A stretch of DNA of 51,682 bases, from positions 1-51,682 of the IMG/VR virus record IMGVR_UViG_2651869781_000017. One strand, given 5' to 3'. Below are positions 1,369 through 41,179 of the stretch, piece after piece. Under the pieces are notes generated by a model. The model ran no database searches. It had not been told where the DNA came from and worked only from the letters and a program-made list of their open reading frames with translations. This DNA is from a virus (taxonomy: Duplodnaviria > Heunggongvirae > Uroviricota > Caudoviricetes). The translations under genes were made by a program, and so were the position numbers. Position 1 is the stretch's first letter. Each line of letters opens with the position of its first letter.

Positions 1369-1444
1369 GCCGATATAGCTCAGTTGGTAGAGCAGCGCAT
1401 TCGTAATGCGAAGGTCGGAGGTTCGACTCCTCTTATCGGCACCA
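1369..1444 (+). tRNA. thrW: tRNA-Thr (anticodon CGT)
   Basis: 76-nt sequence GCCGATATAGCTCAGTTGGTAGAGCAGCGCATTCGTAATGCG...GGCACCA with cloverleaf-compatible arms and CGT anticodon; immediately 3' of proA. Confidence 0.9.
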
Positions 1445-1445
1445 T
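1399..1445 (+). repeat. attL core: 47-bp direct repeat (3' half of thrW) duplicated at 41393-41439
   Basis: Exact 47-bp match ATTCGTAATGCGAAGGTCGGAGGTTCGACTCCTCTTATCGGCACCAT at both positions; flanking bases differ. Confidence 0.85.
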
Positions 1446-1458
1446 TTAAATCAATGAG

Positions 1459-2619
1459 TTACCTAGTATTTAAGTAAATCACGTTCTCCTCTTGTGCCGT
1501 ATTTGTGCCATTGCGACTTATAATCGCATCGATTTTGCTCGCGTGCTCGGTGAGATGCCCGGCTGAAAGGTGGGCGTATCTTTGAACCATTTCGAGAGTT
1601 TCCCATCCTCCCATCTCTTTAAGTGCAAGAAGAGAGACACCGGACTGAACCAGCCAGCTTGCCCAAGTATGCCTCAGGTCATGGAAGCGGAAGTTGCTAA
1701 TGCCTGCCCGCTTTAACGCTCCCTTCCATGCCTTGTTGCTGTCGGTTCTCATCTTCCTTACCGCTGCTGTTTTTGTTCCGTCGCTTCGGTAGGCAGGTTT
1801 GGTGTGGACAAACACCCATCTCTTATGGAGACCCTGCTGTTTTCTTAATATCTGGCATGCGGTTTCGTTAAGAGGAACTCCGATCGCATTGCCAGCTTTT
1901 GTTTCATCAGGGTGCATCCATGCCATTTTCTTATCCAGATCGACCTGTGACCACTCAAGGTCTGTAACGTTGGAACGGCGAAGGCCTGTCGTGATTGCAA
2001 ACATGACCACAGGGAAGAAATGAGGAGCAATTTCTGCAAACAGGCGCTTCGATTCCTCCTCTGTAAGCCATCTGATTCGTCCATTCTTAACGCGTGGTGT
2101 TGATATTTTTGGCGCCCTGTCAAGCCATCCCCATTCAACAGCCATATTGAGAATAGCGCGAAGTATTGCCAGATGCCGCGTCTTCGTTCCTTTGCTTGCC
2201 AGCTTTGGTTTATACTCCGGCACTGGCTTGCCAAGCCGCAAACACCTGTCCCGGCTCATCTCCCAGTTCAGGCGATGGCGGCGGTTTTCCATCCCGTCTA
2301 CCGCCTCCATTATTTTTTCTGTTGTTATGTCAGAGAGAATGGCTTCTCTGAAGTGCAACATCCAGAACGATATAATGCTCTTGTCATCATCAATGGACTT
2401 CTTATCCGATTTCTCACGCAGCCACCGTATGCAGGCTTCCTTGAATAGCTTTTTCGGTGATTCCCCGAGATTTTTTACTCTCCACGCTTCTGCTTTCAGA
2501 CGATCGTGAAGTTCTTGCGCTTGCCTTTTGTCCGATGTTTCAAGAGAGCGTCTAACTCTTGATCCATCTGGCGCGACGAAATCGCAGTGCCACGTGCCAC
2601 CGCGTAGTTTGATTGACAT
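1459..2619 (-). CDS. int: tyrosine integrase (P22/lambda Int family)
   Basis: 386 aa; N-terminus and C-terminal HDLRHTWAS...RYAHL motifs typical of lambdoid integrases; GGAGG RBS before ATG; adjacent to tRNA att site. Confidence 0.9.
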   Translation of the reverse strand: MSIKLRGGTWHCDFVAPDGSRVRRSLETSDKRQAQELHDRLKAEAWRVKNLGESPKKLFKEACIRWLREKSDKKSIDDDKSIISFWMLHFREAILSDITTEKIMEAVDGMENRRHRLNWEMSRDRCLRLGKPVPEYKPKLASKGTKTRHLAILRAILNMAVEWGWLDRAPKISTPRVKNGRIRWLTEEESKRLFAEIAPHFFPVVMFAITTGLRRSNVTDLEWSQVDLDKKMAWMHPDETKAGNAIGVPLNETACQILRKQQGLHKRWVFVHTKPAYRSDGTKTAAVRKMRTDSNKAWKGALKRAGISNFRFHDLRHTWASWLVQSGVSLLALKEMGGWETLEMVQRYAHLSAGHLTEHASKIDAIISRNGTNTAQEENVIYLNTR

Positions 2620-4134: not shown

Positions 4135-4996
4135 GGTTAACCTCCTGCGGAGGTTCCGGTAGCGGCATCCAATTGATTACATCGCATTCAGGGATGCTGA
4201 TATCATCACCAAGCCACCCTTGACCTTCAGACCAGCATTGCACGTAATACCCGTATTTTGTGTTCACTACGCACCACTGCGCGTCGTTCGGCGTCCGCTC
4301 ACTACAGCTTATCCAACCATCCGGAGTTACCGGAACTTGCGGAATGGCTGTCTGCTCTCGAACGTCATTAGGCGCTATAGGTTCTGCTGCCAACTGACTG
4401 GCATATTTGTTAATGGTAACGATAAGCTCTTGCTCAGCCTCATCCAGACAATCACCGATACCTCGCCTGTCACCGTCAAAATCATCGAAATCGGCACGAA
4501 TCTTGGCAACCTTCTGGATTGCGGACAACACCTCACTAGGAATTACCGGATAGTTGGTTGACGTTTCCGCGATTTCCCGAAAATTATTGGTTGACGAATT
4601 CTTGTTTTCCCGAAAGTTTCCGGACTGAAGCATGGCGGCGCGGCAGGCGTTCCAGCCTCTCACCTCTGCAATAGCGGCAACAGCATCAACCGCGTACATG
4701 CTAAGAGGATTAGGCATTGGTTTTTCTTCCGGTACTACTGGAACGGGTGGAGCGGCGTAGACCTCAATAATTCCATTATCAATAGGCCATTCTCCATCCT
4801 TGAGGTAGTCACTTGTGCCGTCAACTTGCTGTTCTGCAATGTGGAATGCACCTATTGGTTTTGCTTCCAGCGATGCCAGAGCAATTCGTGCCAGTTCTTC
4901 CGCTTCTTCTGCTGGCAGTACAACGTTGCTACCAGGTCCGTATGTTTCGCGCCACTGTTTGATTGTCAGCAGTCGCTCTTTGGTAATAGTGGTCAT
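4127..4996 (-). CDS. hypothetical protein with C-terminal DUF551-like domain
   Basis: 289 aa; C-terminal DGWISCSERTPND...WMPLPEPP resembles the DUF551 domain common in enterobacterial prophage ea regions. Confidence 0.45.
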   Translation of the reverse strand: MTTITKERLLTIKQWRETYGPGSNVVLPAEEAEELARIALASLEAKPIGAFHIAEQQVDGTSDYLKDGEWPIDNGIIEVYAAPPVPVVPEEKPMPNPLSMYAVDAVAAIAEVRGWNACRAAMLQSGNFRENKNSSTNNFREIAETSTNYPVIPSEVLSAIQKVAKIRADFDDFDGDRRGIGDCLDEAEQELIVTINKYASQLAAEPIAPNDVREQTAIPQVPVTPDGWISCSERTPNDAQWCVVNTKYGYYVQCWSEGQGWLGDDISIPECDVINWMPLPEPPQEVNRG

Positions 4997-32939: not shown

Positions 32940-34271
32940 ATGGCTACGTGGCAACAGGGTATTAATTCTGGTGGTTTTCTTGCTGGCATCGGTACGCAAA
33001 ATGAGAATGCGCCAAAGGCAAGCGACATTAACGCAACGCTTGGCCTGATCCGCGAAAACAATGAACTGGCTCGCTCAGGTGCAAATAACGTTGGTCTGAC
33101 CGCGTTACGTGGTCTGGCTGGAGTTGCTGATATTTACAATCAGGAACAGCAACAGAAAGCTATTAGTGCGTTCAATAAGGTTCACGCTGATGCATGGGCT
33201 TCTGGTGATCCATCTGGACTATTTAAGTTTGCCCAGGAAAATCCAGCGTTTGTTGCACAGGCACAACAGGCGTTTTCCGGTCTTAATGAGCAGCAACGCA
33301 ACGATATGGGCGAGTTAGCCATGAGGGCTAACGTCGCTCTTTCTCAGGGACCGGAAGCCTACAGTAAATTCATTACTGACAACAAGGACGGGTTAAATCG
33401 TGTGGGTGCGAATGCTGACTGGATGATTCAGACAGGTATTCAGAATCCAGAGCAGCTATCACACATGCTGACTACTATGACGCTAGGGGCTGTTGGTCCG
33501 GATAAAATGCTGGATTATCAGGATAAGATGGTTGGTCGCCAACTAGAGAAAGGGAGATTGGATGAAAGCATCCGTCAGGCTGATATGGAGAATGCGAGAG
33601 GATGGGCAAATATCCAGAACGCTCAACTAGACAGGGCTCAGCGGGCACAAATGCATAATGATAACGTAGCCCTGAAGTTGCAGGAATTAGGGATGAAACA
33701 ACAGGAAAGCGGAAAGATTGACCCAAAACTTGTTCGAGATCTGAATAGTGATATTAATGGGTTCTCAAAGAATTATTCTGCAATGCGCAGTGCTTCTGAC
33801 AACCTACAAGCCCTTGGGAAGCGCAACACTCCAGCCGCGCAGTTGGGAATGATTTTCAACTATATGAAATCGCTGGATCCGCAATCTGTGGTACGCGAAG
33901 GTGAGCAAGTGCAGGTAAAACGCACTGATGGAATATTCGGCACACTTGGTAACTATGTTAGCCAATTATCTAACGGCAAGATGCTGAATAATGAGCAAGT
34001 CCAGGACTTAATCAACACCTCAAAACTGATGGCAAATACTGAAGGCCAAAAGTTTAATCAGCAAATGGATGATTATCTTTCAACTTATGGAGATTCTCTC
34101 CCCAGCGGACTAACTAAGCAATTGCAATCCAGAAAAGCCAAGCTGTATGAAGATATTCAGCAGCCTGCACAACAACAGAGCAATAACCAACAACCGACAA
34201 ATACCCAACAGCAGCAGAGTCAATCCGGATCATATACCTCAAAATCAGGCATTCAATTTACGGTGGAATGA
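32940..34271 (+). CDS. ejection protein (gp20-like)
   Basis: 443 aa; synteny. Confidence 0.7.
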
Positions 34272-36394
34272 TGAAAGTAACTGCAAACGGTAAGACATTT
34301 ACCTTCCCTGACGGTACGAGCACGGAAGATATTGGCTCCGCCATTGATGAGTATTTTGCTGGTCAGGCTGTTCAGCAACAAACAGTTAATCAGGCCAATA
34401 ATGAACAAGCACGTGAAGAACCATCATTGATGCAACAAGCTGGCGATTGGCTCACTGGTGGTCAAAGTGCAGGGCAAATTGCAGAACAGGCTGGTCGTGG
34501 TCTGGTAAACATACCATTTGACGTATTGCAGGGTGGCGCAAGTCTGATTAATGCAATCAGTCAGGGGCTTGGTGGGCCAAAAGTATTGGATGATGTCTAT
34601 CGTCCAGTCGATCGACCGACAGACCCTTACGCGCAAGCCGGTGAAACAATTGGTGGGTATCTCCTGCCAATTGGCACAGCGGCAAAAGCTGCTGGAGCGC
34701 CAGCAAAGCTCGCTGGAGATATCGGTTCCGCAGGAAACATGATTGCAGGTTCTCTTGCTGATGCTGCAAATCAGGAGGGCGACTTTGCACAAAATGCTGC
34801 CATTAACGGTGGTATCAATATTGGTGCTCAAGGCGTTCTTTCAGGTGTCGGGCGCGTTATTGCGCCAAGGGTTTCACAGGCTCTTGGTGGTGCAGCACTG
34901 AATTCTGCTAATGATGTTTCCAGGATGGCAAAGTCAGGTGCTGGGCGTCGGTCAATTGCCAGTCAGGCCGCTAATGTGTCCGAAGATGTAGCAAAAGCGG
35001 CTGAGTCTGCTGGAATTGATATAAACGCATTAACACCAGGAATGCGATCTGGAAGTCGTGGAATTGCACAAGCTGAAGGCGCATTGGCATCAACACCAGG
35101 AATTGTTCAGGACGCCCATCAGGCAGCATTTAACGAAATATCATCAAAGTTAAGTCGAAACCTTGATGAATTTGGGGCCGCATCTGGAACGGCATCAGAA
35201 AAAAGTGCGGCTATAAAACAAAGGATTCTTCAAAATCTTGATCAGATGAAGGATGCCGAGCGCGCGGCATGGGATGACGTGCGGTCAACAATGCCAAATC
35301 AAAAAGCAAGAATGCTAAATGGTAATGCCGTTATTCAGGCAGAGCGATCTGCTGGCATACCACTTACTCCTGAAATGAAACAGTTTGTTCAGGCAAACAA
35401 TCAAGGTGGAGTAACATTTGATGGCATGAAAGCATGGAGAGCGAAATTTGCTGATGCGGAGCAAAAATATAAGCGTAGCGGAGAGGCAAATGCGGCAAGG
35501 AGAGCAGGGGAAATACGCCGGGCAATTACTGATGATATGCGCACAATGGCGGAAAACGGCGGATTTCTTGATGACTGGCAGAAAGCTAATGATCTGTCTA
35601 AAGCGAGGTTATCAGCACAAGAGAGTGCAGAGTCTGTTTTCGGGCGTGATTTGGCAACAGATGCACTGATTACGAATGGAGTAAAATCCCTTCAATCATC
35701 GTCAGCTAAAGGTCTTAATGGTCCTGCTGGGTTCCATTCTATGATCCGCGCGCTGCCAGAATCAGAGCGTGTTCCTGCTATATCATCAATGTTGCAAGAT
35801 GCTATCTCGCATGGTGTACGTGGTGGCAAAGCTGATGCAGCAGGAATTAACCATATCGCAGGGATACTTACCCCACAAAATGTAAAAGCCATTAGCAGAT
35901 ATTCCTCAGATCTCGGAAGAATTGCTGATGCATATGGCACTCTTGCAAGAGCGGCAGTGAAACCTCAGCAGTATATTGAAAGAACAGGGAGAACTGCCAA
36001 TGTACTACGCGATCTGGATGCTGGTTTATCCAACGTCACATCAACAGTGTTAAATGCAATTGCCAACTCAACATCAGGTGCCATTGTTGGTGGCGCTGGA
36101 GGGGGTATTGCAGGCGCTGCCGCGGGTGCTTTAGTTGGCGCCGGGTTAAAAGGTGCTGTATCTAAAATTGCCACCACGCGTAGCGGTCGATATGCGATAG
36201 AGAAAGCAGTTCAGGAAGCCACGAAAGCAGTAAGAGCTGGCGGAAGTAAAGAAGCATTAGCGGCGGCGGAACGCAGATTTATGGCAAATAAAGCCGCCGT
36301 AAAAGCAATACGTGATGCAGTTGGAAACGAAGAGTTCAATCGCTTAGCGAGGGCTGGCATTGTAGCGTCGCTAAGCGGAATAGCACAGGAGTAA
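34268..36394 (+). CDS. ejection protein (gp16-like), enlarged (708 aa)
   Basis: Synteny; Ala/Gly-rich; about 100 aa longer than P22 gp16 as remembered. Confidence 0.7.
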
Positions 36395-36718
36395 TTAATC
36401 ATCCATGGATGGATTGAGCTTATCTCGTGTTGATGTGGCGATTTGTCCTACATTCCTAAGCCAAGATTTCAAATCCTTGATATTGTCATTGATTTCATGA
36501 ATATCTTCTTTTTTTAGTCTGTTAATATTATTCTCAATAATTTCAATGGATTGCTCAATATCAGATATAGTGAATGATAGTTTGTTCTTCTCATCTTTTA
36601 TTGAGTTTTTAAGTGCTTCGTTCTCAGTCTTGAGGTCAGATATCTTTTGTTTTAAAGATGCCAGTTGGTACTGAACCACAATGAGTGCGATAGCTATCAC
36701 GATAACTGTTGTATACAC
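36395..36718 (-). CDS. N-terminally anchored membrane coiled-coil protein (107 aa), AT-rich cargo gene
   Basis: N-terminal TM (YTTVIVIAIALIVVQY) followed by K/E/N-rich coiled coil; GC far below prophage average. Confidence 0.55.
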   Translation of the reverse strand: MYTTVIVIAIALIVVQYQLASLKQKISDLKTENEALKNSIKDEKNKLSFTISDIEQSIEIIENNINRLKKEDIHEINDNIKDLKSWLRNVGQIATSTRDKLNPSMDD

Positions 36719-36739
36719 ACAAATCTCCTTAGTTAGTAG

Positions 36740-37075
36740 CTATTTGGTAACCAAGGCAATAAACAGCGGAGCAAGGATTGCAGATATCATGAGGGCGATA
36801 AGCCACTTCTGATTCTCGTCCATCTTATCTGCTAGGCGACGCTCCATTCCGTGCATGTCGCCACGGATGCCAATCAACTCTTTTCTAGTTTCTGATATTA
36901 GCTTTTCTTGGTTGGCGGCAATCGTTTCAATGCGGGTCATTCTACTGTTCATATCTGATCCTCCTCCATTGCCACCTCCATGTGCTGGCTCTTCTGAGTC
37001 TTCAATTCCGATGGGGGCAAATTCGCTATTCGGAAAAGGATTGTCAGCATCGTAAGCCAACTTCAACTTAGACAT
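36740..37075 (-). CDS. tail-anchored membrane protein (111 aa) with Gly-rich N-terminal region
   Basis: C-terminal TM (WLIALMISAILAPLFIALV); start overlaps the stop of the upstream Zn-ribbon gene. Confidence 0.55.
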   Translation of the reverse strand: MSKLKLAYDADNPFPNSEFAPIGIEDSEEPAHGGGNGGGSDMNSRMTRIETIAANQEKLISETRKELIGIRGDMHGMERRLADKMDENQKWLIALMISAILAPLFIALVTK

Positions 37076-37433
37076 TGCTGTTTTTCTCCCTTAGATACCA
37101 GCTTAACACAACACCTGTGTTGTACTGCATAATGTATCCGCAATGCTTGCAAATTACATGATAAGAGTAATTTATTGGGTTGAATGATTCATCTTCGTTT
37201 TTTATATATTCACCATAATGGGCATGCCTACCCATGATGTCTTTTCCATTATCCTGATTTACAAATTGAACTTGAGGGACAACCATTTCAGACTGCCCGC
37301 ACATTGGGCATTCGTCTGGAACACCTTTAGCTCTCAAGAAAGAGTCGAGAACCTTTGTAGTTATAGACGATAGCGCCTTGCGATATTCAGCCTCTCGCAG
37401 TTGATCGTCTGAGTATCCTGAATTGTCACTCAT
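37068..37433 (-). CDS. zinc-ribbon protein (121 aa; CPMC...CKHC)
   Basis: Two CxxC pairs; ATGA overlap with mnt stop implies translational coupling. Confidence 0.55.
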   Translation of the reverse strand: MSDNSGYSDDQLREAEYRKALSSITTKVLDSFLRAKGVPDECPMCGQSEMVVPQVQFVNQDNGKDIMGRHAHYGEYIKNEDESFNPINYSYHVICKHCGYIMQYNTGVVLSWYLREKNSNV

Positions 37434-37681
37434 TTTTCATCCTTACCATACATGGTCTTTAGCGTCTCAACATCGCGTTCAAGATCTATCAATCGTGATG
37501 CTATAGTTGCAAGGTCTAGTGCTTGAATGTGTTTATTTTTTTCGGTCCACGCTTCAAGTGCCGCGACCATCTCAGCATTTAATGAACGAGAATTAGCCTC
37601 AGCCAGTTCAATAAGACGTTCCTTTATCTCTACAGGAAGCCTCAGATTCACTTGAGGGTTTTTGTACTTACGATCAGACAT
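37430..37681 (-). CDS. mnt: Mnt-like ribbon-helix-helix repressor
   Basis: 83 aa; N-terminal RHH (VNLRLPVEIKERLIELAEANSRSLNAEM) parallels P22 Mnt; divergent from arc-ant. Confidence 0.75.
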   Translation of the reverse strand: MSDRKYKNPQVNLRLPVEIKERLIELAEANSRSLNAEMVAALEAWTEKNKHIQALDLATIASRLIDLERDVETLKTMYGKDEK

Positions 37682-37786
37682 CGGCGCATCCTGAATAATT
37701 TTTTACCACAGGATATGTAGGTATCTATTGACTATCAATGCGTACCTAAATACTATGTATGCGTACCACACACAACGGAGGATGCA

Positions 37787-37927
37787 ATGAAGGTAAAAAC
37801 ACTGCGTATGCCAGAGAAGCTAGAAAAAATTCTTGAAGAAAAAGCAAAGGAAGAGTGCCGCTCATTCAGCGCAGAAGTAATTAAACGGGTGCTGGACAGC
37901 CTGAGGAGAGAGGGGATAACGGTGTGA
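37787..37927 (+). CDS. arc: Arc-like ribbon-helix-helix repressor (46 aa)
   Basis: MKVKTLRMPEKLEKILEEKAKEECRSFSAEVIKRVL...; small RHH directly upstream of ant. Confidence 0.7.
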   Translation: MKVKTLRMPEKLEKILEEKAKEECRSFSAEVIKRVLDSLRREGITV

Positions 37928-38025
37928 TTCGCTTGGATGCGGCAAAGAAATCAAAACAGTGAAGCCCCAACTGCGGGAACAGTCAGGGCTTCGGTATCGT
38001 AAAACCACGCATAGGAATTAACGAC

Positions 38026-38949
38026 ATGAAAAGTATAGCAACAGCAGTATCTACTATCAATGTACCATTCCACGGCGCAGAGCTTTATGTTGTCAATCAC
38101 AACGGCGAACCGTATACCCCAATGAAACCTATCGTTGAGGGAATGGGGCTAGACTGGAAATCTCAACATAAGAAGATTTCTCAACGCTTCTCGAAGGGTA
38201 TGGTGGAAATCACCATACCTTCTGCCGGTGGGGTGCAAGCCATGATTTGTATGGCTTTACGAAAATTGGCAGCTTGGTTGAACAGCATCAGTCCTAACAA
38301 AGTCCGCCCTGAAATCCGCGACAAGGTAATCCAGTATCAGGAAGAGTGTGACGATGTGCTCTACGACTACTGGACTAAAGGCCATGTAGTTAACCCACGC
38401 AAAGCTAAAAAGGCGTTGCCGGGTAAAATCACCACTGAACAGCAGGAAGCCATTAAACAACTCGTCATGAGTCGCGGTCAGTCTCTGCCAAAAGAAAAAC
38501 AGGCTAAGGCGATGATCACCATGTGGTCGTCACTGAAATCCCATTTTGGATGTTCGTACAAAGAAATCAGTGAGGAGCAGTTTACCGAAGCACTATCACT
38601 TGCAGCTAGAGTTCCACTTGAAGGTGAGTTCATTGGCAAACAAGAGAAGAAAACCAACGAGCTTTCTGCAAAAGAAGCAAACAGCCTTGTATGGTTATGG
38701 GATTATGCCAACCGTTCGCAGGCATTATTCCGCGAACTGTATCCGGCGCTAAAACAAATTCAATCGAACTATTCCGGCAGATGTCATGACTGCGGTTATG
38801 AGTTCTCCCGTATTATCGATATGGCGAGAGATGTTTTAATCAACCATACACGAGATGTTGATATTAATGAGCCAGACGGACCAACGAATCTTTCCGCATG
38901 GATGAGACTTAAGAATAAAGAATTACCTCCTTCAGTACATAACTACTGA
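38026..38949 (+). CDS. ant: antirepressor Ant
   Basis: 307 aa; AntA-type N-terminal domain; immI position downstream of arc. Confidence 0.7.
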   Translation: MKSIATAVSTINVPFHGAELYVVNHNGEPYTPMKPIVEGMGLDWKSQHKKISQRFSKGMVEITIPSAGGVQAMICMALRKLAAWLNSISPNKVRPEIRDKVIQYQEECDDVLYDYWTKGHVVNPRKAKKALPGKITTEQQEAIKQLVMSRGQSLPKEKQAKAMITMWSSLKSHFGCSYKEISEEQFTEALSLAARVPLEGEFIGKQEKKTNELSAKEANSLVWLWDYANRSQALFRELYPALKQIQSNYSGRCHDCGYEFSRIIDMARDVLINHTRDVDINEPDGPTNLSAWMRLKNKELPPSVHNY

Positions 38950-39049: not shown

Positions 39050-41179
39050 ATGACAGATATCACCGCAAATGTTGTGGTAAGCATGCCTTCGCAACTCTTC
39101 ACTATGGCTCGTTCTTTTAAAGCCGTAGCTAATGGCAAAATTTATATCGGAAAAATTGACACTGACCCGGTAAATCCAGGAAACCAGATCCAGGTTTATG
39201 TGGAGAACGAAGATGGCTCTCATGTTCCTGTTTCGCAACCAATCATCATTAACGCTGCCGGATATCCGGTATATAACGGACAGATTGCCAAATTCGTTAC
39301 CGTGCAAGGCCATTCTATGGCTGTTTATGATGCATATGGTGCGCAGCAGTTTTATTTTCCTAATGTGTTGAAGTATGATCCTGATCAGTTTAGTTTGAAG
39401 CTATCCATGCCTGATGGGGCAGGTGAAATTGGATATCAATATAGAAATAATGTTACATCTTCTTACCGAAGAGTAAACGACAAGCTTGATGAGCATGTCA
39501 GTATTCTGGATTTTCATAGAAATGTTGATGGTGGGTTAATCCTTCCTGCACAGAATGTTGATAGTAGACCATTCTTTGAGCGAGCACTTGTATACATTGA
39601 ATCAATAGGCGGTGGCACTATTTATGTACCGGCTGGAAAATACTATTTAAATTCATACAGTGAAATAGGGATCATAGGCACTGTCTTTAATGCAATATTG
39701 CCACTTTGCGATAATGTTAAAATTTTATTGGATACAGCGGCAGAAATAGTTGTCGGTACTTTTTTTGATGACAAGCCTTTCCAGTTGTTTTTTGGTTCTT
39801 CGCCTTTGAAACCAAATCTTGTAGACGCTGTAAATAATGTTGTCATAGAAGGTGGTACAATTAGCTTTAGTGGTTATAGCAGTATGATGAGAACAGCACC
39901 ACTAAACAGAATTGCATTGCAGACAGGAAATATAGATAATCTTCGCATATCAAATGTTACCTTTCGTGATGGTGACTTAACAAACGCTTTAGCGATAGGA
40001 TACAAAAATCTAGGCAAATATGCAGTTGTTGAGAATTGCAACTTTATTGACCTTATTCAGAACGGAATGAATAACGATCATAGTAGTATCTACCTTAATG
40101 CGTCACACTCTACAATTAATAATTGCAACTTTATTTCCACGATAGATAAAGGAAGGAAGATCGCTTGTGCTGTTGAGTTGCATAAATCTTTCAATAGTTG
40201 GATTGGTGGTAATGTTGATGGCTATACACGTGGTGCTTTTATAAACGCTATTGATACTGAATCATCTCTTGTAGAAAACACCAGAATTGAATCAGTTACC
40301 GCTAGAATACTACACCAGTTTGTAGCGTACTCGTTCGGTTCTAATGGGGTTATAAGAAATAGTCTTGTTTCAGGAAATAATGTAACAACTCTTGCGAGAA
40401 GTTCATCCGATACAGATCCTTCAGAATTTGGACCTTGCAGTCTCTGCGGTTGGGTGTCATATGGTAGTTTTGCAAATGCAGAAGGCCTAAATATCGTAGT
40501 TGAAAATAATACATACATTGTTGATGAATCAGTACAAGATTCATATAGTTGCGTATTTTATGCAATCGCAAATGTTTCAGGTGTTACTGTTCGTAGAAAC
40601 AGTGTTGGAGCGAGAACTTTTTTCTACAACCCAACCCCATCACTAAATCTTTACAATTGCCATTTTTATGAAAACAGGTTTGAGGAATCGTATGTACAGA
40701 GCGGTTCAGAAAGATTTTTATATGATCTTAACTGTAATCGTATTTCTCAAAGCACTTTCGAAGCATTTGTTCCAATAAAAACAACTGCACTGACAGGAGT
40801 TATGAGGATTGACCCATCTACGCTCGGTCCGCAGAATCGTTTTGTTGTCGATACTCAGAATACAGATAATATTGAACACCCATTTATTACAAATTTGCCA
40901 GGTTTGCTCGGGCAGGATGGTACAACTTACTCATATCCGCAAAAATGCGATGTCAACATCGGAGTTGGTTCTACACCTGTCCTATCTGTGATAAGTCCGG
41001 AAATAAGCACTGTAGACAGAGGACAGATTCTTAACAACGCGAACCTTCCATCTGGTTATGTCGCTCCGTCGTCGTTAATGAAGTACGATTCTACGCTTAC
41101 AGGAGCTGGTGTCACAGTATCAGGGACGCCATCCGGTAATTATCATGACGTGAGGATTCTACTGATAAGAGAACGTTAG
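39050..41179 (+). CDS. tailspike protein (P22-type N-terminal head-binding domain plus distinct receptor-binding domain)
   Basis: N-terminal 110 aa [34 protein letters not shown]...VLKYDPDQ matches P22 gp9 head-binding domain; rest diverges. Confidence 0.88.

What the first reader, a model, noticed from the sequence alone, without database searches (positions are those of the whole stretch)
36395..37681. AT-rich three-gene membrane and zinc-ribbon module co-transcribed with mnt in the sieA slot: candidate novel exclusion or defence system
Between ejection gene 16 and mnt, where P22 carries sieA, this prophage has three translationally coupled genes on the mnt strand: a CxxC...CxxC zinc-ribbon protein (37068-37433, ATGA overlap with mnt), a tail-anchored membrane protein (36740-37075), and an N-terminally anchored membrane coiled-coil protein (36395-36718). 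GC content is far below the prophage average, so this is horizontally acquired cargo. Co-orientation with the lysogenically expressed mnt repressor implies expression in the lysogen. None of the three resembles SieA or any defence protein I can recognise.
Basis: partly seen in the sequence, partly recalled or inferred. Interest (0 to 1): 0.75.

Follow-up and report, generated by a model that had tools for sequence, protein, structure and literature searches.

The report
Uncharacterised two-gene prophage membrane cassette
Behind the mnt repressor gene of this P22-like E. coli prophage sits a conserved, mobile and so far unstudied gene pair (a soluble zinc-ribbon protein plus a membrane-anchored partner) that different phages always wire into genes active in the dormant prophage, making it a good but untested candidate for a new phage-exclusion or abortive-infection module; the third gene (hkcB) is a separate passenger.

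Summary
The four minus-strand genes (mnt, ORF3, ORF2, hkcB) exist as described. They are tightly packed with no terminator between them and are under purifying selection.

The "three-gene module" is really two units. hkcB, the only strongly AT-rich gene, is an old unnamed P22-like gene that travels with one gene-16 type. ORF3+ORF2 is a mobile two-gene cassette found in about 100 other phage loci.

ORF3 is a soluble protein with four invariant cysteines and no curated family or structural neighbour. ORF2 has a disordered N-terminal peptide, an invariant glycine run, a coiled coil and a C-terminal membrane anchor (XhlA-like, below threshold). The recombination joint is the glycine run: the N-peptide stays with ORF3, and the membrane module is swapped.

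The cassette is always placed for lysogenic expression: fused behind mnt, behind three different CI repressors (the rexAB position), behind a P2-type repressor-integrase unit, or as a moron with its own conserved terminator and extended -10 promoter.

It is not SieA and matches no PADLOC model. Sister phages carry HicA and YafO toxins in the same slot. A defence or exclusion role is plausible (about 0.45) but untested.

The parts
37710..37738 (-). Pmnt-like promoter (TTGATA-17-TATCCT), overlapping the divergent Pant-like promoter at 37728-37756 (+)
   Evidence: Consensus scan. The layout matches the annotated Pmnt/Pant region of epsilon34. It is a consensus match only.
37430..37681 (-). mnt, an Arc/Mnt-family ribbon-helix-helix repressor and first gene of the operon
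   Evidence: PF03869 E=3e-10. RefSeq calls it 'Arc family DNA-binding protein', WP_021533962.1.
37068..37433 (-). ORF3: soluble 121-aa zinc-ribbon protein. Cys42, Cys45, Cys95 and Cys98 are encoded at 37308-37310, 37299-37301, 37149-37151 and 37140-37142. It is the first gene of the mobile cassette.
   Evidence: ATGA overlap with mnt. Four invariant Cys. phrog_4293 E=4e-31, function unknown. AF2 pLDDT 80.5. No fold or family match. dN/dS 0.05. WP_021533961.1.
36740..37075 (-). ORF2: 111-aa tail-anchored partner. It has an N-terminal peptide (residues 1-32), a Gly run (residues 33-39, 36959-36979), a coiled coil (about residues 42-90) and a TM anchor (residues 93-109, 36749-36799).
   Evidence: 8-nt overlap with ORF3. 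phrog_6324 E=6e-30. XhlA PF10779 at 20.7 bits, below the 34.7 cut-off; homologues about 70% identical are labelled XhlA family. AF2: residues 1-40 disordered, one helix 41-110. TM analysis. dN/dS 0.08-0.10. WP_021533960.1.
36725..36730 (-). AAGGAG Shine-Dalgarno for hkcB, in the 21-nt ORF2-hkcB spacer
   Evidence: Read directly from the sequence. Homology with epsilon34 ends about 16 nt upstream of the GTG, so hkcB has no promoter region of its own here.
36395..36718 (-). hkcB: 107-aa protein with an N-terminal TM (residues 4-20) and a coiled coil. It is an independent P22-like gene that directly abuts the stop codon of gene 16 on the opposite strand.
   Evidence: 100% identical to epsilon34 gp14, 98% to CUS-3 hkcB, 50% to HK620 hkcB. 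phrog_5962 E=1e-58, function unknown. Function stated as unknown in PMC2629481. Linked to the gp16 type. GC 0.333. WP_000288816.1.
34268..36394 (+). Gene 16 (ejection / DNA-transfer protein), left boundary of the slot. hkcB is co-inherited with this gp16 type.
   Evidence: 98.6% identical to epsilon34 gp13, 98.5% to CUS-3, 75% to HK620; 24% to the gp16 of the hkcB-less E200086 prophage.
37787..38949 (+). arc (37787-37927) and ant (38026-38949), the divergent half of immI. The sar antisense RNA lies at 37958-38024 on the minus strand.
   Evidence: Pfam Arc, P22_AR_N and P22_AR_C. Rfam RF00262 at 76.6 bits. Psar and its terminator.

Best explanation
The region is a four-gene leftward operon, Pmnt-mnt-ORF3-ORF2-hkcB, assembled from two independent accessory units.

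(1) ORF3+ORF2 is a mobile, evolutionarily conserved two-gene cassette of temperate phages of Enterobacterales. ORF3 is a soluble cytoplasmic zinc-ribbon protein. ORF2 is a tail-anchored inner-membrane protein built as a short N-terminal peptide, a glycine tether, a coiled-coil stalk and a C-terminal TM anchor (XhlA/CCDC90-like architecture).

Shown:
- The pair is almost always adjacent and usually overlapping.
- The N-peptide is inherited with ORF3, while the stalk/anchor is exchanged at the glycine run.
- The cassette is always placed for expression outside the late operon: fused to mnt, to cI, or to a repressor-integrase unit, or carrying its own promoter behind a terminator.

Inferred:
- The N-peptide docks ORF3, holding it on a flexible tether at the cytoplasmic face of the inner membrane of the lysogen.
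- There the pair acts against superinfecting phage. Either it is a RexAB-like sensor plus membrane-permeabilising (holin-like) effector that aborts infection, or it is a SieA-like block of genome entry where the ejection conduit emerges.

(2) hkcB is a separate small inner-membrane coiled-coil gene that travels with the HK620/epsilon34-type gene 16. In this window it is merely read through from Pmnt. Its function is unknown; an exclusion role tied to that ejection protein is possible.

Confidence by layer: mosaic two-unit structure 0.9; lysogenic-type expression 0.8; anti-phage function of the cassette about 0.45.
For: Operon:
- ATGA and 8-nt overlaps, an AAGGAG SD, and no minus-strand terminator between mnt and hkcB.

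Cassette unity:
- About 74 of 77 IMG/VR loci with an ORF3 relative have the Gly-run/TM partner directly downstream, mostly overlapping.
- The same holds in a subfamily only about 20-25% identical.

Modularity:
- The XhlA-type anchor occurs with 2 Zn clusters and 6 N-peptide types.
- One Zn/N-peptide type occurs with 3 anchor types.
- An unrelated 136-aa soluble protein replaces ORF3 in the same operon frame in L125 and L127.

Lysogenic placement:
- Behind mnt with overlapping codons (window, L008, L009-L013).
- Behind three different HTH+S24 CI repressors, with no intervening terminator and a strong terminator after the pair.
- Behind the HTH repressor and integrase at the prophage edge next to btuC.
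- As a moron with a conserved terminator, a TGnTA(A/G)ATT extended -10 and a GGTGA SD, whatever the upstream gene.

Slot character:
- Sister phages carry a YafO toxin (CUS-3) and HicA plus a HicB-like protein (SEN22) in the same slot. P22 carries sieA there (PMC10883804).

Reality of the genes:
- dN/dS 0.05-0.10.
- Invariant Cys.
- ORF3 model pLDDT 80.5.
- ORF2 has a disordered N-terminus plus a single long helix.

XhlA-family proteins are single-TM holin components that are lethal only with a partner (PMC6316719).

hkcB independence.
Against: - No experiment of any kind exists for this family.
- No similarity to any PADLOC model, Pfam or NCBIfam family or solved or predicted structure. The function is therefore inferred from context alone.
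- In most siphophage loci the cassette is co-oriented with the tail genes, so late read-through expression cannot be excluded. The conserved promoter is a consensus inference, not a mapped start site.
- The XhlA resemblance is below threshold (20.7 against 34.7 bits), and characterised XhlA proteins serve the phage's own lysis.
- Docking of the N-peptide on ORF3 is inferred only from co-inheritance of adjacent DNA, which physical linkage alone would also produce.
- The exact module is rare: 9 of 5426 complete E. coli genomes.
Confidence: 0.45

Rival explanations
1. A toxin-antitoxin-like addiction or stress module. ORF2 would be a small membrane-damaging toxin and ORF3 its zinc-binding antitoxin, encoded upstream and translationally coupled. 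Its main role would be stabilising the prophage, not excluding phage. This overlaps with the abortive-infection version of the best explanation.
For: - Gene order and overlap are those of type II TA pairs.
- The same slot holds YafO and HicA toxins in CUS-3 and SEN22.
- XhlA-type proteins take part in lethal membrane lesions.
- A weak, non-significant structural echo of the MqsA zinc-binding antitoxin (Foldseek E=0.16).
Against: - XhlA-type proteins are not toxic on their own in Bacillus (PMC6316719).
- There is no homology to any known TA family.
- The membrane module is freely exchanged among unrelated types. That is unusual for a toxin that must stay matched to its antitoxin, unless the N-peptide is the only contact.
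Confidence: 0.2
2. An accessory lysis-timing device for the phage's own lytic cycle: a holin component (ORF2) and its regulator (ORF3), acting late in infection or after induction.
For: - PF10779/XhlA-like hits and the holin family phrog_689 (E=1e-5).
- In siphophages the pair is co-oriented with late tail genes.
- hkcB gives weak Rz-like spanin PHROG hits at E of about 1e-3.
Against: - It is never next to a holin, endolysin or spanin cassette.
- There is no XhlB-type two-TM partner.
- In P22-like, ENT1-like and P2-like phages it lies in repressor or integrase transcription units, antisense to or far from late genes.
- In siphophages it is insulated by a terminator and has its own promoter-like element.
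- The spanin-like hits are generic coiled-coil matches.
Confidence: 0.1
3. A regulator of the lysis-lysogeny decision that belongs to the immunity circuitry, for example a membrane-tethered factor that sequesters or senses antirepressor or repressor.
For: Repeated adjacency to Mnt/Arc/Ant, to Ant/Rha/KilA-like genes, and to CI repressors.
Against: - The cassette also occurs with no Ant or immI nearby: at integrase-edge loci and after lipoprotein or tail genes.
- It carries an autonomous promoter.
- These regions are general moron hotspots, so adjacency is expected for any lysogenic cargo.
Confidence: 0.1
4. One reading: mnt-linked ORF3, ORF2 and hkcB form one three-component exclusion system whose parts need each other.
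For: - They are co-transcribed here, in nine identical E. coli prophages, and in L117, L120 and L126.
- L125 and L127 keep a partner-type gene next to hkcB.
- Both membrane proteins probably face the cytoplasm.
Against: - hkcB occurs without the pair in epsilon34, CUS-3, HK620, SEN22 and most IMG/VR P22-like loci.
- The pair occurs without hkcB in about 100 loci, including a P22-like prophage with a different gene 16.
- hkcB tracks the gene-16 type.
Confidence: 0.08

Closest known systems
Lambda RexA/RexB (prophage abortive-infection pair encoded downstream of cI; own knowledge)
   Same: Two genes, a soluble cytoplasmic protein plus an inner-membrane protein. In ENT1-type phages the cassette occupies exactly the rexAB position: cI, then the pair, then a terminator, divergent from cro. 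In the window it is analogously fused to the other lysogenic repressor gene, mnt.
   Different: No sequence or fold similarity. RexB is a polytopic membrane protein, whereas ORF2 is a single-pass tail-anchored coiled coil with a glycine tether. ORF3 is a 121-aa zinc ribbon, much smaller than RexA. No phenotype is known.
P22 SieA superinfection exclusion protein (PMC10883804)
   Same: Same genomic slot between gene 16 and the tailspike. Inner-membrane location. Prophage-expressed. SieA targets the gp16/gp20 ejection conduit encoded immediately upstream.
   Different: SieA is a single multi-pass protein with the motif FxRYPxEAxxFNK. The motif is absent from the whole window. All three ORFs here have at most one TM, and there is no similarity.
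XhlA of Bacillus PBSX / gp24.1 of SPP1 (PF10779; PMC6316719, PMC5589764)
   Same: The ORF2 C-terminal 70 aa has the same architecture: a coiled coil followed by one C-terminal TM. Hits are sub-threshold for ORF2 and clearer for relatives about 70% identical.
   Different: Those proteins sit in lysis cassettes with a two-TM holin (XhlB/gp26) and an endolysin, and act in host lysis. ORF2 has an extra N-peptide and Gly run, is paired with a zinc-ribbon protein, lies in a repressor operon of a Gram-negative prophage, and its anchor module is interchangeable with non-XhlA types.
HK97 gp15 exclusion moron located ahead of the tape-measure gene (own knowledge: Cumby et al. 2012), and morons in general (Juhala et al. 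2000)
   Same: In about 55 siphophage loci the cassette lies in the tail-gene region just ahead of the tape-measure gene. It is preceded by a terminator and a promoter-like element and is inserted between otherwise unrelated neighbours.
   Different: Unrelated proteins and two genes where HK97 has one. In the window the autonomous promoter has been replaced by a fusion to mnt.
DUF1640 / CCDC90 (MCUR1-type) stalk-anchor proteins
   Same: The long partner variant in P2-like E. coli prophages is annotated DUF1640/CCDC90 in RefSeq. It shares the coiled-coil stalk plus C-terminal anchor design.
   Different: Only sub-threshold Pfam scores (23-24 against 33.5 bits). The window's ORF2 does not hit this family. 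The eukaryotic members are mitochondrial scaffolds.

Membership tests
SieA (P22-type superinfection exclusion) | Conserved cytoplasmic motif FxRYPxEAxxFNK (PMC10883804) | tested here: not met
   A six-frame regex scan of the whole window, including degenerate versions, found no match.
SieA (P22-type superinfection exclusion) | Multi-pass inner-membrane protein of about 160-200 aa | tested here: not met
   ORF1 and ORF2 each have a single hydrophobic segment and ORF3 has none. Lengths are 107, 111 and 121 aa.
SieA (P22-type superinfection exclusion) | Encoded between the homologues of genes 16 and 9 of a P22-like prophage | tested here: met
   Gene 16 is at 34268-36394 and the tailspike at 39050-41179. 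The position is as described.
XhlA family (PF10779) | Score at or above the Pfam gathering threshold (34.7 bits) | tested here: not met
   Window ORF2 scores 20.7 bits, E=5e-4. 13 of 16 family members hit at E<=0.01, best 9e-7. Relatives about 70% identical carry a precomputed PF10779 hit and the NCBI name 'hemolysin XhlA family protein'. No NCBIfam hit.
XhlA family (PF10779) | Small protein with a coiled coil followed by a single C-terminal TM | tested here: met
   TM at residues 93-109 of 111. One helix 41-110 in the AF2 model.
XhlA family (PF10779) | Encoded in a lysis cassette with a two-TM holin (XhlB type) and an endolysin (PMC6316719) | tested here: not met
   The neighbours are mnt, ORF3, hkcB and gene 16. 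None of about 100 related loci shows a lysis cassette next to the pair.
RexAB-type prophage abortive-infection pair | Sequence homology to RexA or RexB | tested here: not met
   No PADLOC, Pfam or PHROG hit of that kind. I did not verify whether PADLOC 2.0.0 contains Rex models.
RexAB-type prophage abortive-infection pair | Two genes co-transcribed with the maintenance repressor in the lysogen | tested here: inconclusive
   The layout is met by sequence: mnt fusion in the window, and cI fusion with a terminator only after the pair in ENT1-type loci. Transcription itself was not measured.
RexAB-type prophage abortive-infection pair | Membrane depolarisation and abortive infection on superinfection | not testable with these tools
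   Needs infection experiments.
Moron (autonomous transcription unit inserted in a phage genome) | Own promoter and flanking terminator(s); inserted between genes that are adjacent in relatives | tested here: met
   For the siphophage copies: a conserved terminator AACCCGCTTAACTGCGGGTTTT and an extended -10 TGnTA(A/G)ATT upstream, with at least 10 different upstream gene families. A terminator-like hairpin follows the pair in 19 of 57 distinct loci. In the window the promoter is replaced by the mnt fusion. Promoter activity is inferred from consensus only.
Zinc ribbon (four-Cys knuckle pair) | Two CxxC knuckles conserved across the family and brought together on a beta-sheet | tested here: met
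   C42, C45, C95 and C98 are invariant in alignments of 8, 48 and 79 sequences. The AF2 model has a beta-sheet core at pLDDT about 90 around both knuckles. Weak TFIIS/Rpb9 matches. Metal binding was not tested.
Type II toxin-antitoxin pair | Small upstream antitoxin gene overlapping a downstream toxin gene; toxin toxic when expressed alone | tested here: inconclusive
   Gene order and overlap are met. There is no homology to known TA families. Toxicity is not testable here.

The most novel reading that the evidence does not exclude
ORF3+ORF2 would be the founding example of an unrecognised, modular class of prophage immunity devices. Tail-anchored coiled-coil 'stalk-anchor' proteins (XhlA-like, CCDC90-like and other types) would use a short N-terminal peptide on a glycine tether to hold interchangeable soluble sensor proteins at the cytoplasmic face of the inner membrane. 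The sensors seen so far are the four-Cys zinc-ribbon family, or the unrelated 136-aa protein of L125 and L127. On arrival of a superinfecting genome or its ejection proteins, the complex would either block entry or oligomerise into a holin-like lesion that aborts infection.
Probability: 0.3. Interest if true: 0.8.

Novelty: new variant of a known kind. Interest (0 to 1): 0.6.

Why it matters
If the pair protects lysogens, it adds a new, very small two-protein anti-phage module with no homology to any catalogued system. It is found in E. coli (including ST131 and EHEC O26/O103/O145 prophages), Salmonella, Klebsiella, Enterobacter and other Enterobacterales, all hosts relevant to phage therapy.

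Its architecture is a swappable membrane anchor joined at a glycine tether to a peptide that travels with the soluble partner. That would be a clear example of modular sensor/effector exchange, and it suggests a direct experiment: swap the anchors and swap the sensors.

It also refines the map of the 'sieA slot' of P22-like phages as a hotspot holding SieA, HicAB, YafO, lipoproteins and this cassette. Finally, it separates hkcB, a 25-year-old orphan gene, as a gene-16-linked unit that deserves its own test.

Tried and rejected
- **SieA types A, B and C:** rejected on motif, size and TM number.
- **Known defence systems:** PADLOC gave only coiled-coil noise for hkcB and nothing for ORF2, ORF3 or the slot neighbours.
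- **'Hemolysin':** rejected as an annotation label inherited from the Pfam name. The characterised XhlA proteins are phage lysis proteins.
- **hkcB as an Rz-like spanin or DivIC/FtsL-like protein:** only E of about 1e-3 to 1e-4 coiled-coil matches, and no o-spanin or lysis context.
- **ORF3 as Lar, TFIIS, rubredoxin, MqsA or NrdR:** all sub-threshold generic zinc-ribbon hits.
- **Locus search with the very diverse alignment A5:** failed for lack of a conserved stretch and was replaced by a sub-alignment.
- **Literature:** a search for 'hkcB' returned only unrelated acronyms. No paper or DefensePredictor supplement mentions the three accessions. The validated DefensePredictor systems I read about do not resemble this pair. 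The Brenes & Laub 2025 prophage-defence paper is not in the library and could not be checked.
- **SPN3UB-type locus:** the generic scan found no convincing sigma-70 promoter. The conserved extended -10 emerged only from the multi-locus alignment.
Full report

Yes, for the genes. The minus strand carries mnt (37430-37681), ORF3 (37068-37433), ORF2 (36740-37075) and ORF1 (36395-36718), lying between gene 16 (34268-36394, +) and arc/ant/tailspike.
ORF3/ORF2 overlap by 8 nt with GGGAGA upstream. ORF2 and ORF1 are 21 nt apart, with a perfect AAGGAG six nt before a GTG start.
- The consensus scan finds overlapping divergent Pmnt/Pant-like promoters at 37710-37756, a Psar-like promoter with its terminator, and tant. 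It finds no convincing minus-strand terminator between mnt and the end of ORF1.
- Rfam finds an intact sar RNA (76.6 bits, 37958-38024, minus strand). mnt, arc and ant have the expected Pfam domains.
- The prophage sits at tRNA-Thr(CGT), next to an integrase-sized ORF.
- All three ORFs are under purifying selection: dN/dS is 0.05 for ORF3, 0.08-0.10 for ORF2 and 0.27 for ORF1.

Two points of the observation fail.
- GC is far below average only for ORF1 (0.333 against 0.453 for the window). ORF3 is 0.402, mnt 0.413 and ORF2 0.464.
- The three genes are not one inherited unit (section 2).

**2. The module is a mosaic.**

ORF1 is hkcB, an unnamed ORF known since the HK620 genome.
- It is 100% identical to epsilon34 gp14, 98% to CUS-3 hkcB and 50% to HK620 hkcB. 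In each phage it directly abuts the stop codon of gene 16 on the opposite strand.
- The epsilon34 genome paper lists it as of unknown function (PMC2629481).
- Epsilon34, HK620, SEN22 and most IMG/VR P22-like loci have hkcB without ORF2/3.
- All hkcB-bearing phages share one gp16 type (98-99% identity, 75% for HK620). A P22-like prophage with an unrelated gp16 (24% identity; E. coli E200086) has mnt-ORF3-ORF2 but a different small membrane gene in place of hkcB.

So hkcB travels with gene 16. In this window it has no upstream region of its own, because homology to epsilon34 ends about 16 nt before its start. It must therefore be read through from ORF2.

**3. ORF3+ORF2 is a conserved, mobile two-gene cassette.**

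- tblastn finds both proteins adjacent and in the same order in unrelated siphophages: Klebsiella ST101-KPC2phi6.1, Salmonella SPN3UB and S107, and Enterobacter ENT1.
- A scan of IMG/VR gave 77 loci with an ORF3 relative. About 74 have, directly downstream and mostly overlapping by 4, 8 or 29 nt, a gene for a protein with a glycine run followed by a coiled coil and a C-terminal TM. The exceptions are L021, L026 and a truncated gene in L059.
- An exhaustive profile search of 1.84 billion representatives found only 157 relatives with E <= 1e-3. Nearly all are small stand-alone proteins of roughly 100-180 aa, and the four cysteines are invariant in an alignment of 78 of them with ORF3.
- A subfamily only about 20-25% identical to ORF3 (161-166 aa) is again followed by an overlapping Gly-run/coiled-coil/TM partner. 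It occurs in 39 of 5426 complete E. coli genomes, including EHEC O26, O103 and O145.

**4. What the proteins are.**

ORF3 has no hydrophobic segment.
- Its AlphaFold2 model (pLDDT 80.5, pTM 0.73) has two N-terminal helices, a beta-sheet that brings the two CxxC knuckles together, and a C-terminal helix.
- No Pfam, NCBIfam or PDB-sequence match reaches threshold, even for 79 members or a profile.
- PHROGs knows it as phrog_4293, function unknown.

ORF2 is a tail-anchored protein: the TM is residues 93-109 of 111, with only 'TK' beyond it.
- The model shows residues 1-40 disordered and one continuous helix 41-110.
- The family alignment shows a variable N-terminal peptide (often [DN][FY]P[KRQ][HF]), an invariant glycine run ending in (D/E)M, a coiled coil of about 45 residues, and the anchor.
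- The C-terminal 70 residues resemble XhlA (PF10779). The window protein scores 20.7 bits, below the 34.7-bit cut-off. 13 of 16 relatives hit at E <= 0.01. Relatives about 70% identical carry the precomputed Pfam hit and NCBI's name 'hemolysin XhlA family protein'.
- Other partner types give only sub-threshold XhlA or CCDC90-like/DUF1640 hits. RefSeq calls the long type DUF1640/CCDC90.
- In Bacillus, XhlA and SPP1 gp24.1 are the single-TM component of a two-part holin. It is harmless alone and lethal with the two-TM partner (PMC6316719; PMC5589764).

**5. Modularity.**

- SPN3UB and S107 have 99% identical ORF3 homologues. Their partners are alike only through the glycine run and then diverge completely.
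- Across 73 pairs, the XhlA-type anchor occurs with two ORF3 clusters and six N-peptide types. One ORF3/N-peptide type occurs with three different anchors.
- In two P22-like loci (L125, L127) the same operon frame is kept: mnt, ATGA overlap, gene X, 8-nt overlap, Gly-run partner, hkcB. There, gene X is an unrelated 136-aa protein without cysteines, and the partner's N-peptide is different too.

The glycine run is thus the recombination joint. I infer that the N-peptide is the docking site for the upstream soluble protein and that the stalk/anchor is a generic membrane module. Physical linkage alone could also explain the co-inheritance, so this step is inference.

**6. Where the cassette sits.**

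Four independent arrangements all imply expression outside the late operon.
- (a) Fused behind mnt with overlapping codons. This is seen in the window, in nine identical complete E. coli genomes, in E200086 and in L009-L013.
- (b) 30-80 nt behind three different HTH + peptidase-S24 CI-type repressors. There is a divergent Cro-like gene, no intervening terminator, and a strong terminator 8 nt after the partner's stop codon. This is the position of rexAB in lambda (own knowledge).
- (c) In P2-like prophages: a Cox-like gene on the opposite strand, then HTH repressor, integrase, Zn-ribbon gene and partner, then host btuC. This extends the repressor-integrase unit at the prophage edge.
- (d) In about 55 siphophage loci, ahead of the tape-measure gene and behind at least ten different gene families. 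The 150 nt upstream are conserved regardless of the neighbour. They contain a terminator (AACCCGCTTAACTGCGGGTTTT), a conserved block TGGATAnAnGAnCAGTT, an extended -10 (TGnTA(A/G)ATT) and a GGTGA SD before a GTG start. That is the moron signature. HK97's exclusion moron gp15 occupies the analogous place (own knowledge). A terminator-like hairpin follows the pair in 19 of 57 distinct loci.

**7. What else lives in this slot.**

- P22 has sieA here. [quoted passage not shown]
- SieA proteins are multi-pass and carry FxRYPxEAxxFNK. That motif is absent from the whole window, and the three ORFs have at most one TM each.
- In hkcB-bearing relatives the slot holds:
  - an epsilon34-type lipoprotein (12 loci);
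  - this cassette (3 loci);
  - the 136-aa variant (2 loci);
  - a P63C protein;
  - a ClpP-like protein;
  - HicA plus a DUF1902 (HicB-like) protein in SEN22;
  - a YafO-family toxin in CUS-3.

It is therefore a hotspot for toxin-type and envelope cargo. None of these proteins hits PADLOC.

**8. Mechanism, with the status of each step.**

Shown:
- a four-gene operon layout;
- a conserved soluble-plus-tail-anchored pair;
- anchor exchange at the glycine run;
- placement in lysogenic transcription units or behind its own promoter-like element.

Inferred:
- ORF3 is tethered by the ORF2 N-peptide at the cytoplasmic face of the inner membrane of the lysogen.
- The pair acts on superinfecting phage. 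Either it is a RexAB-like sensor with a holin-like effector (abortive infection), or it blocks genome entry where the gp16 or tape-measure conduit emerges (SieA- or HK97 gp15-like).
- By the positive-inside rule, HkcB probably has its coiled coil in the cytoplasm too. Its function remains unknown.

My probabilities are about 0.45 for an anti-phage role, 0.2 for a TA-like addiction module, 0.1 for a lysis-timing accessory, 0.1 for an immunity-circuit regulator, and under 0.1 for the three-gene system.

**9. Novelty.**

No paper in the library, and no DefensePredictor supplement, mentions the accessions WP_021533961, WP_021533960 or WP_000288816. All database names are 'hypothetical protein' or the XhlA label. 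The validated DefensePredictor systems I read about do not resemble this pair. One relevant paper, Brenes & Laub 2025, could not be checked.

The kind of thing is known: a prophage-encoded, lysogenically expressed membrane module. The proteins and the tethered, swappable architecture are not. I rate it a new variant of a known kind, with interest 0.6. It is a solid, experimentally tractable candidate, but the function is unproven and the original three-gene framing needs correcting.

Noticed in passing
L125 3985-5324 and L127 (IMG/VR P22-like prophages): The same operon frame as in the window, with the same ATGA and 8-nt overlaps, but ORF3 is replaced by an unrelated 136-aa protein with no cysteine motif and no Pfam hit. 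The Gly-run partner has a different N-peptide and an ENT1-type anchor. hkcB follows.
   Followed up: partly
L002 4442-5445 (CUS-3) and L124 4005-4859 (SEN22): The slot between hkcB and mnt holds toxin-antitoxin-type cargo in sister phages. CUS-3 has a YafO-family toxin (PF13957, E=3e-11) behind a 199-aa unknown. SEN22 has a HicA toxin (E=4e-9) next to a 217-aa protein with a DUF1902 (HicB-like) domain.
   Followed up: partly
window 36300-36718; L008 3627-3977: hkcB is co-inherited with one gp16 type, and its 3' end plus the 3' end of gene 16 are the best-conserved DNA (83% even to HK620). A prophage with an unrelated gp16 has instead a different small membrane-protein gene overlapping the gene-16 stop. 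This may point to a functional tie between these small membrane proteins and the ejection protein that SieA targets.
   Followed up: partly
L005 about 4830-4955 and equivalent positions in about 30 distinct loci (alignment): Between the conserved terminator and the extended -10 of the moron copies lies a conserved block, TGGATAnAnGAnCAGTT, containing a GATC in most sequences. It could be an operator or a Dam-sensitive site controlling the cassette.
   Followed up: no
L129 3160-5539 (E. coli O103:H2 12009) and 38 other complete E. coli genomes: A P2-like prophage inserted next to btuC carries the long version of the cassette (166-aa Zn-ribbon protein plus a DUF1640/CCDC90-annotated partner) directly after its integrase. 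It is present in EHEC O26, O103 and O145 strains.
   Followed up: partly
window 36740-37075; L008 3911-4264; L004 5446-5658; L129 5102-5539: Public annotations often start the partner gene at an internal Met (70-73 aa instead of 111-117, or 145 instead of 184). That cuts off the N-terminal peptide and glycine run, which are the most diagnostic part and overlap the upstream gene.
   Followed up: yes
window 37958-38024 (-): An intact sar antisense RNA (Rfam RF00262, 76.6 bits) with its promoter-like site (38060-38032) and terminator (37992-37961). The immI region is complete even though its mnt operator sequences differ from those of epsilon34.
   Followed up: yes
L117 3592-3795: In one otherwise near-identical prophage, a 67-aa cysteine-rich ORF (MSKECCFCG...CSDC...) lies between arc and ant. 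It is absent from the window, where the arc-ant gap is only 98 nt.
   Followed up: no
window 1369-2619: tRNA-Thr(CGT) at 1369-1444 is followed by a 386-aa minus-strand ORF at 1459-2619, presumably the integrase. This marks the left prophage end at the thrW-type site used by P22-like phages.
   Followed up: no
window 39050-41179; L106 6156-8287: The tailspike gene is AT-rich (GC 0.389) beyond its conserved head-binding N-terminus. In E. coli ISHS7, which carries an identical cassette, the tailspike is truncated and an IS3 element lies about 1.1 kb downstream, so that prophage is probably defective while the mnt operon is intact.
   Followed up: no
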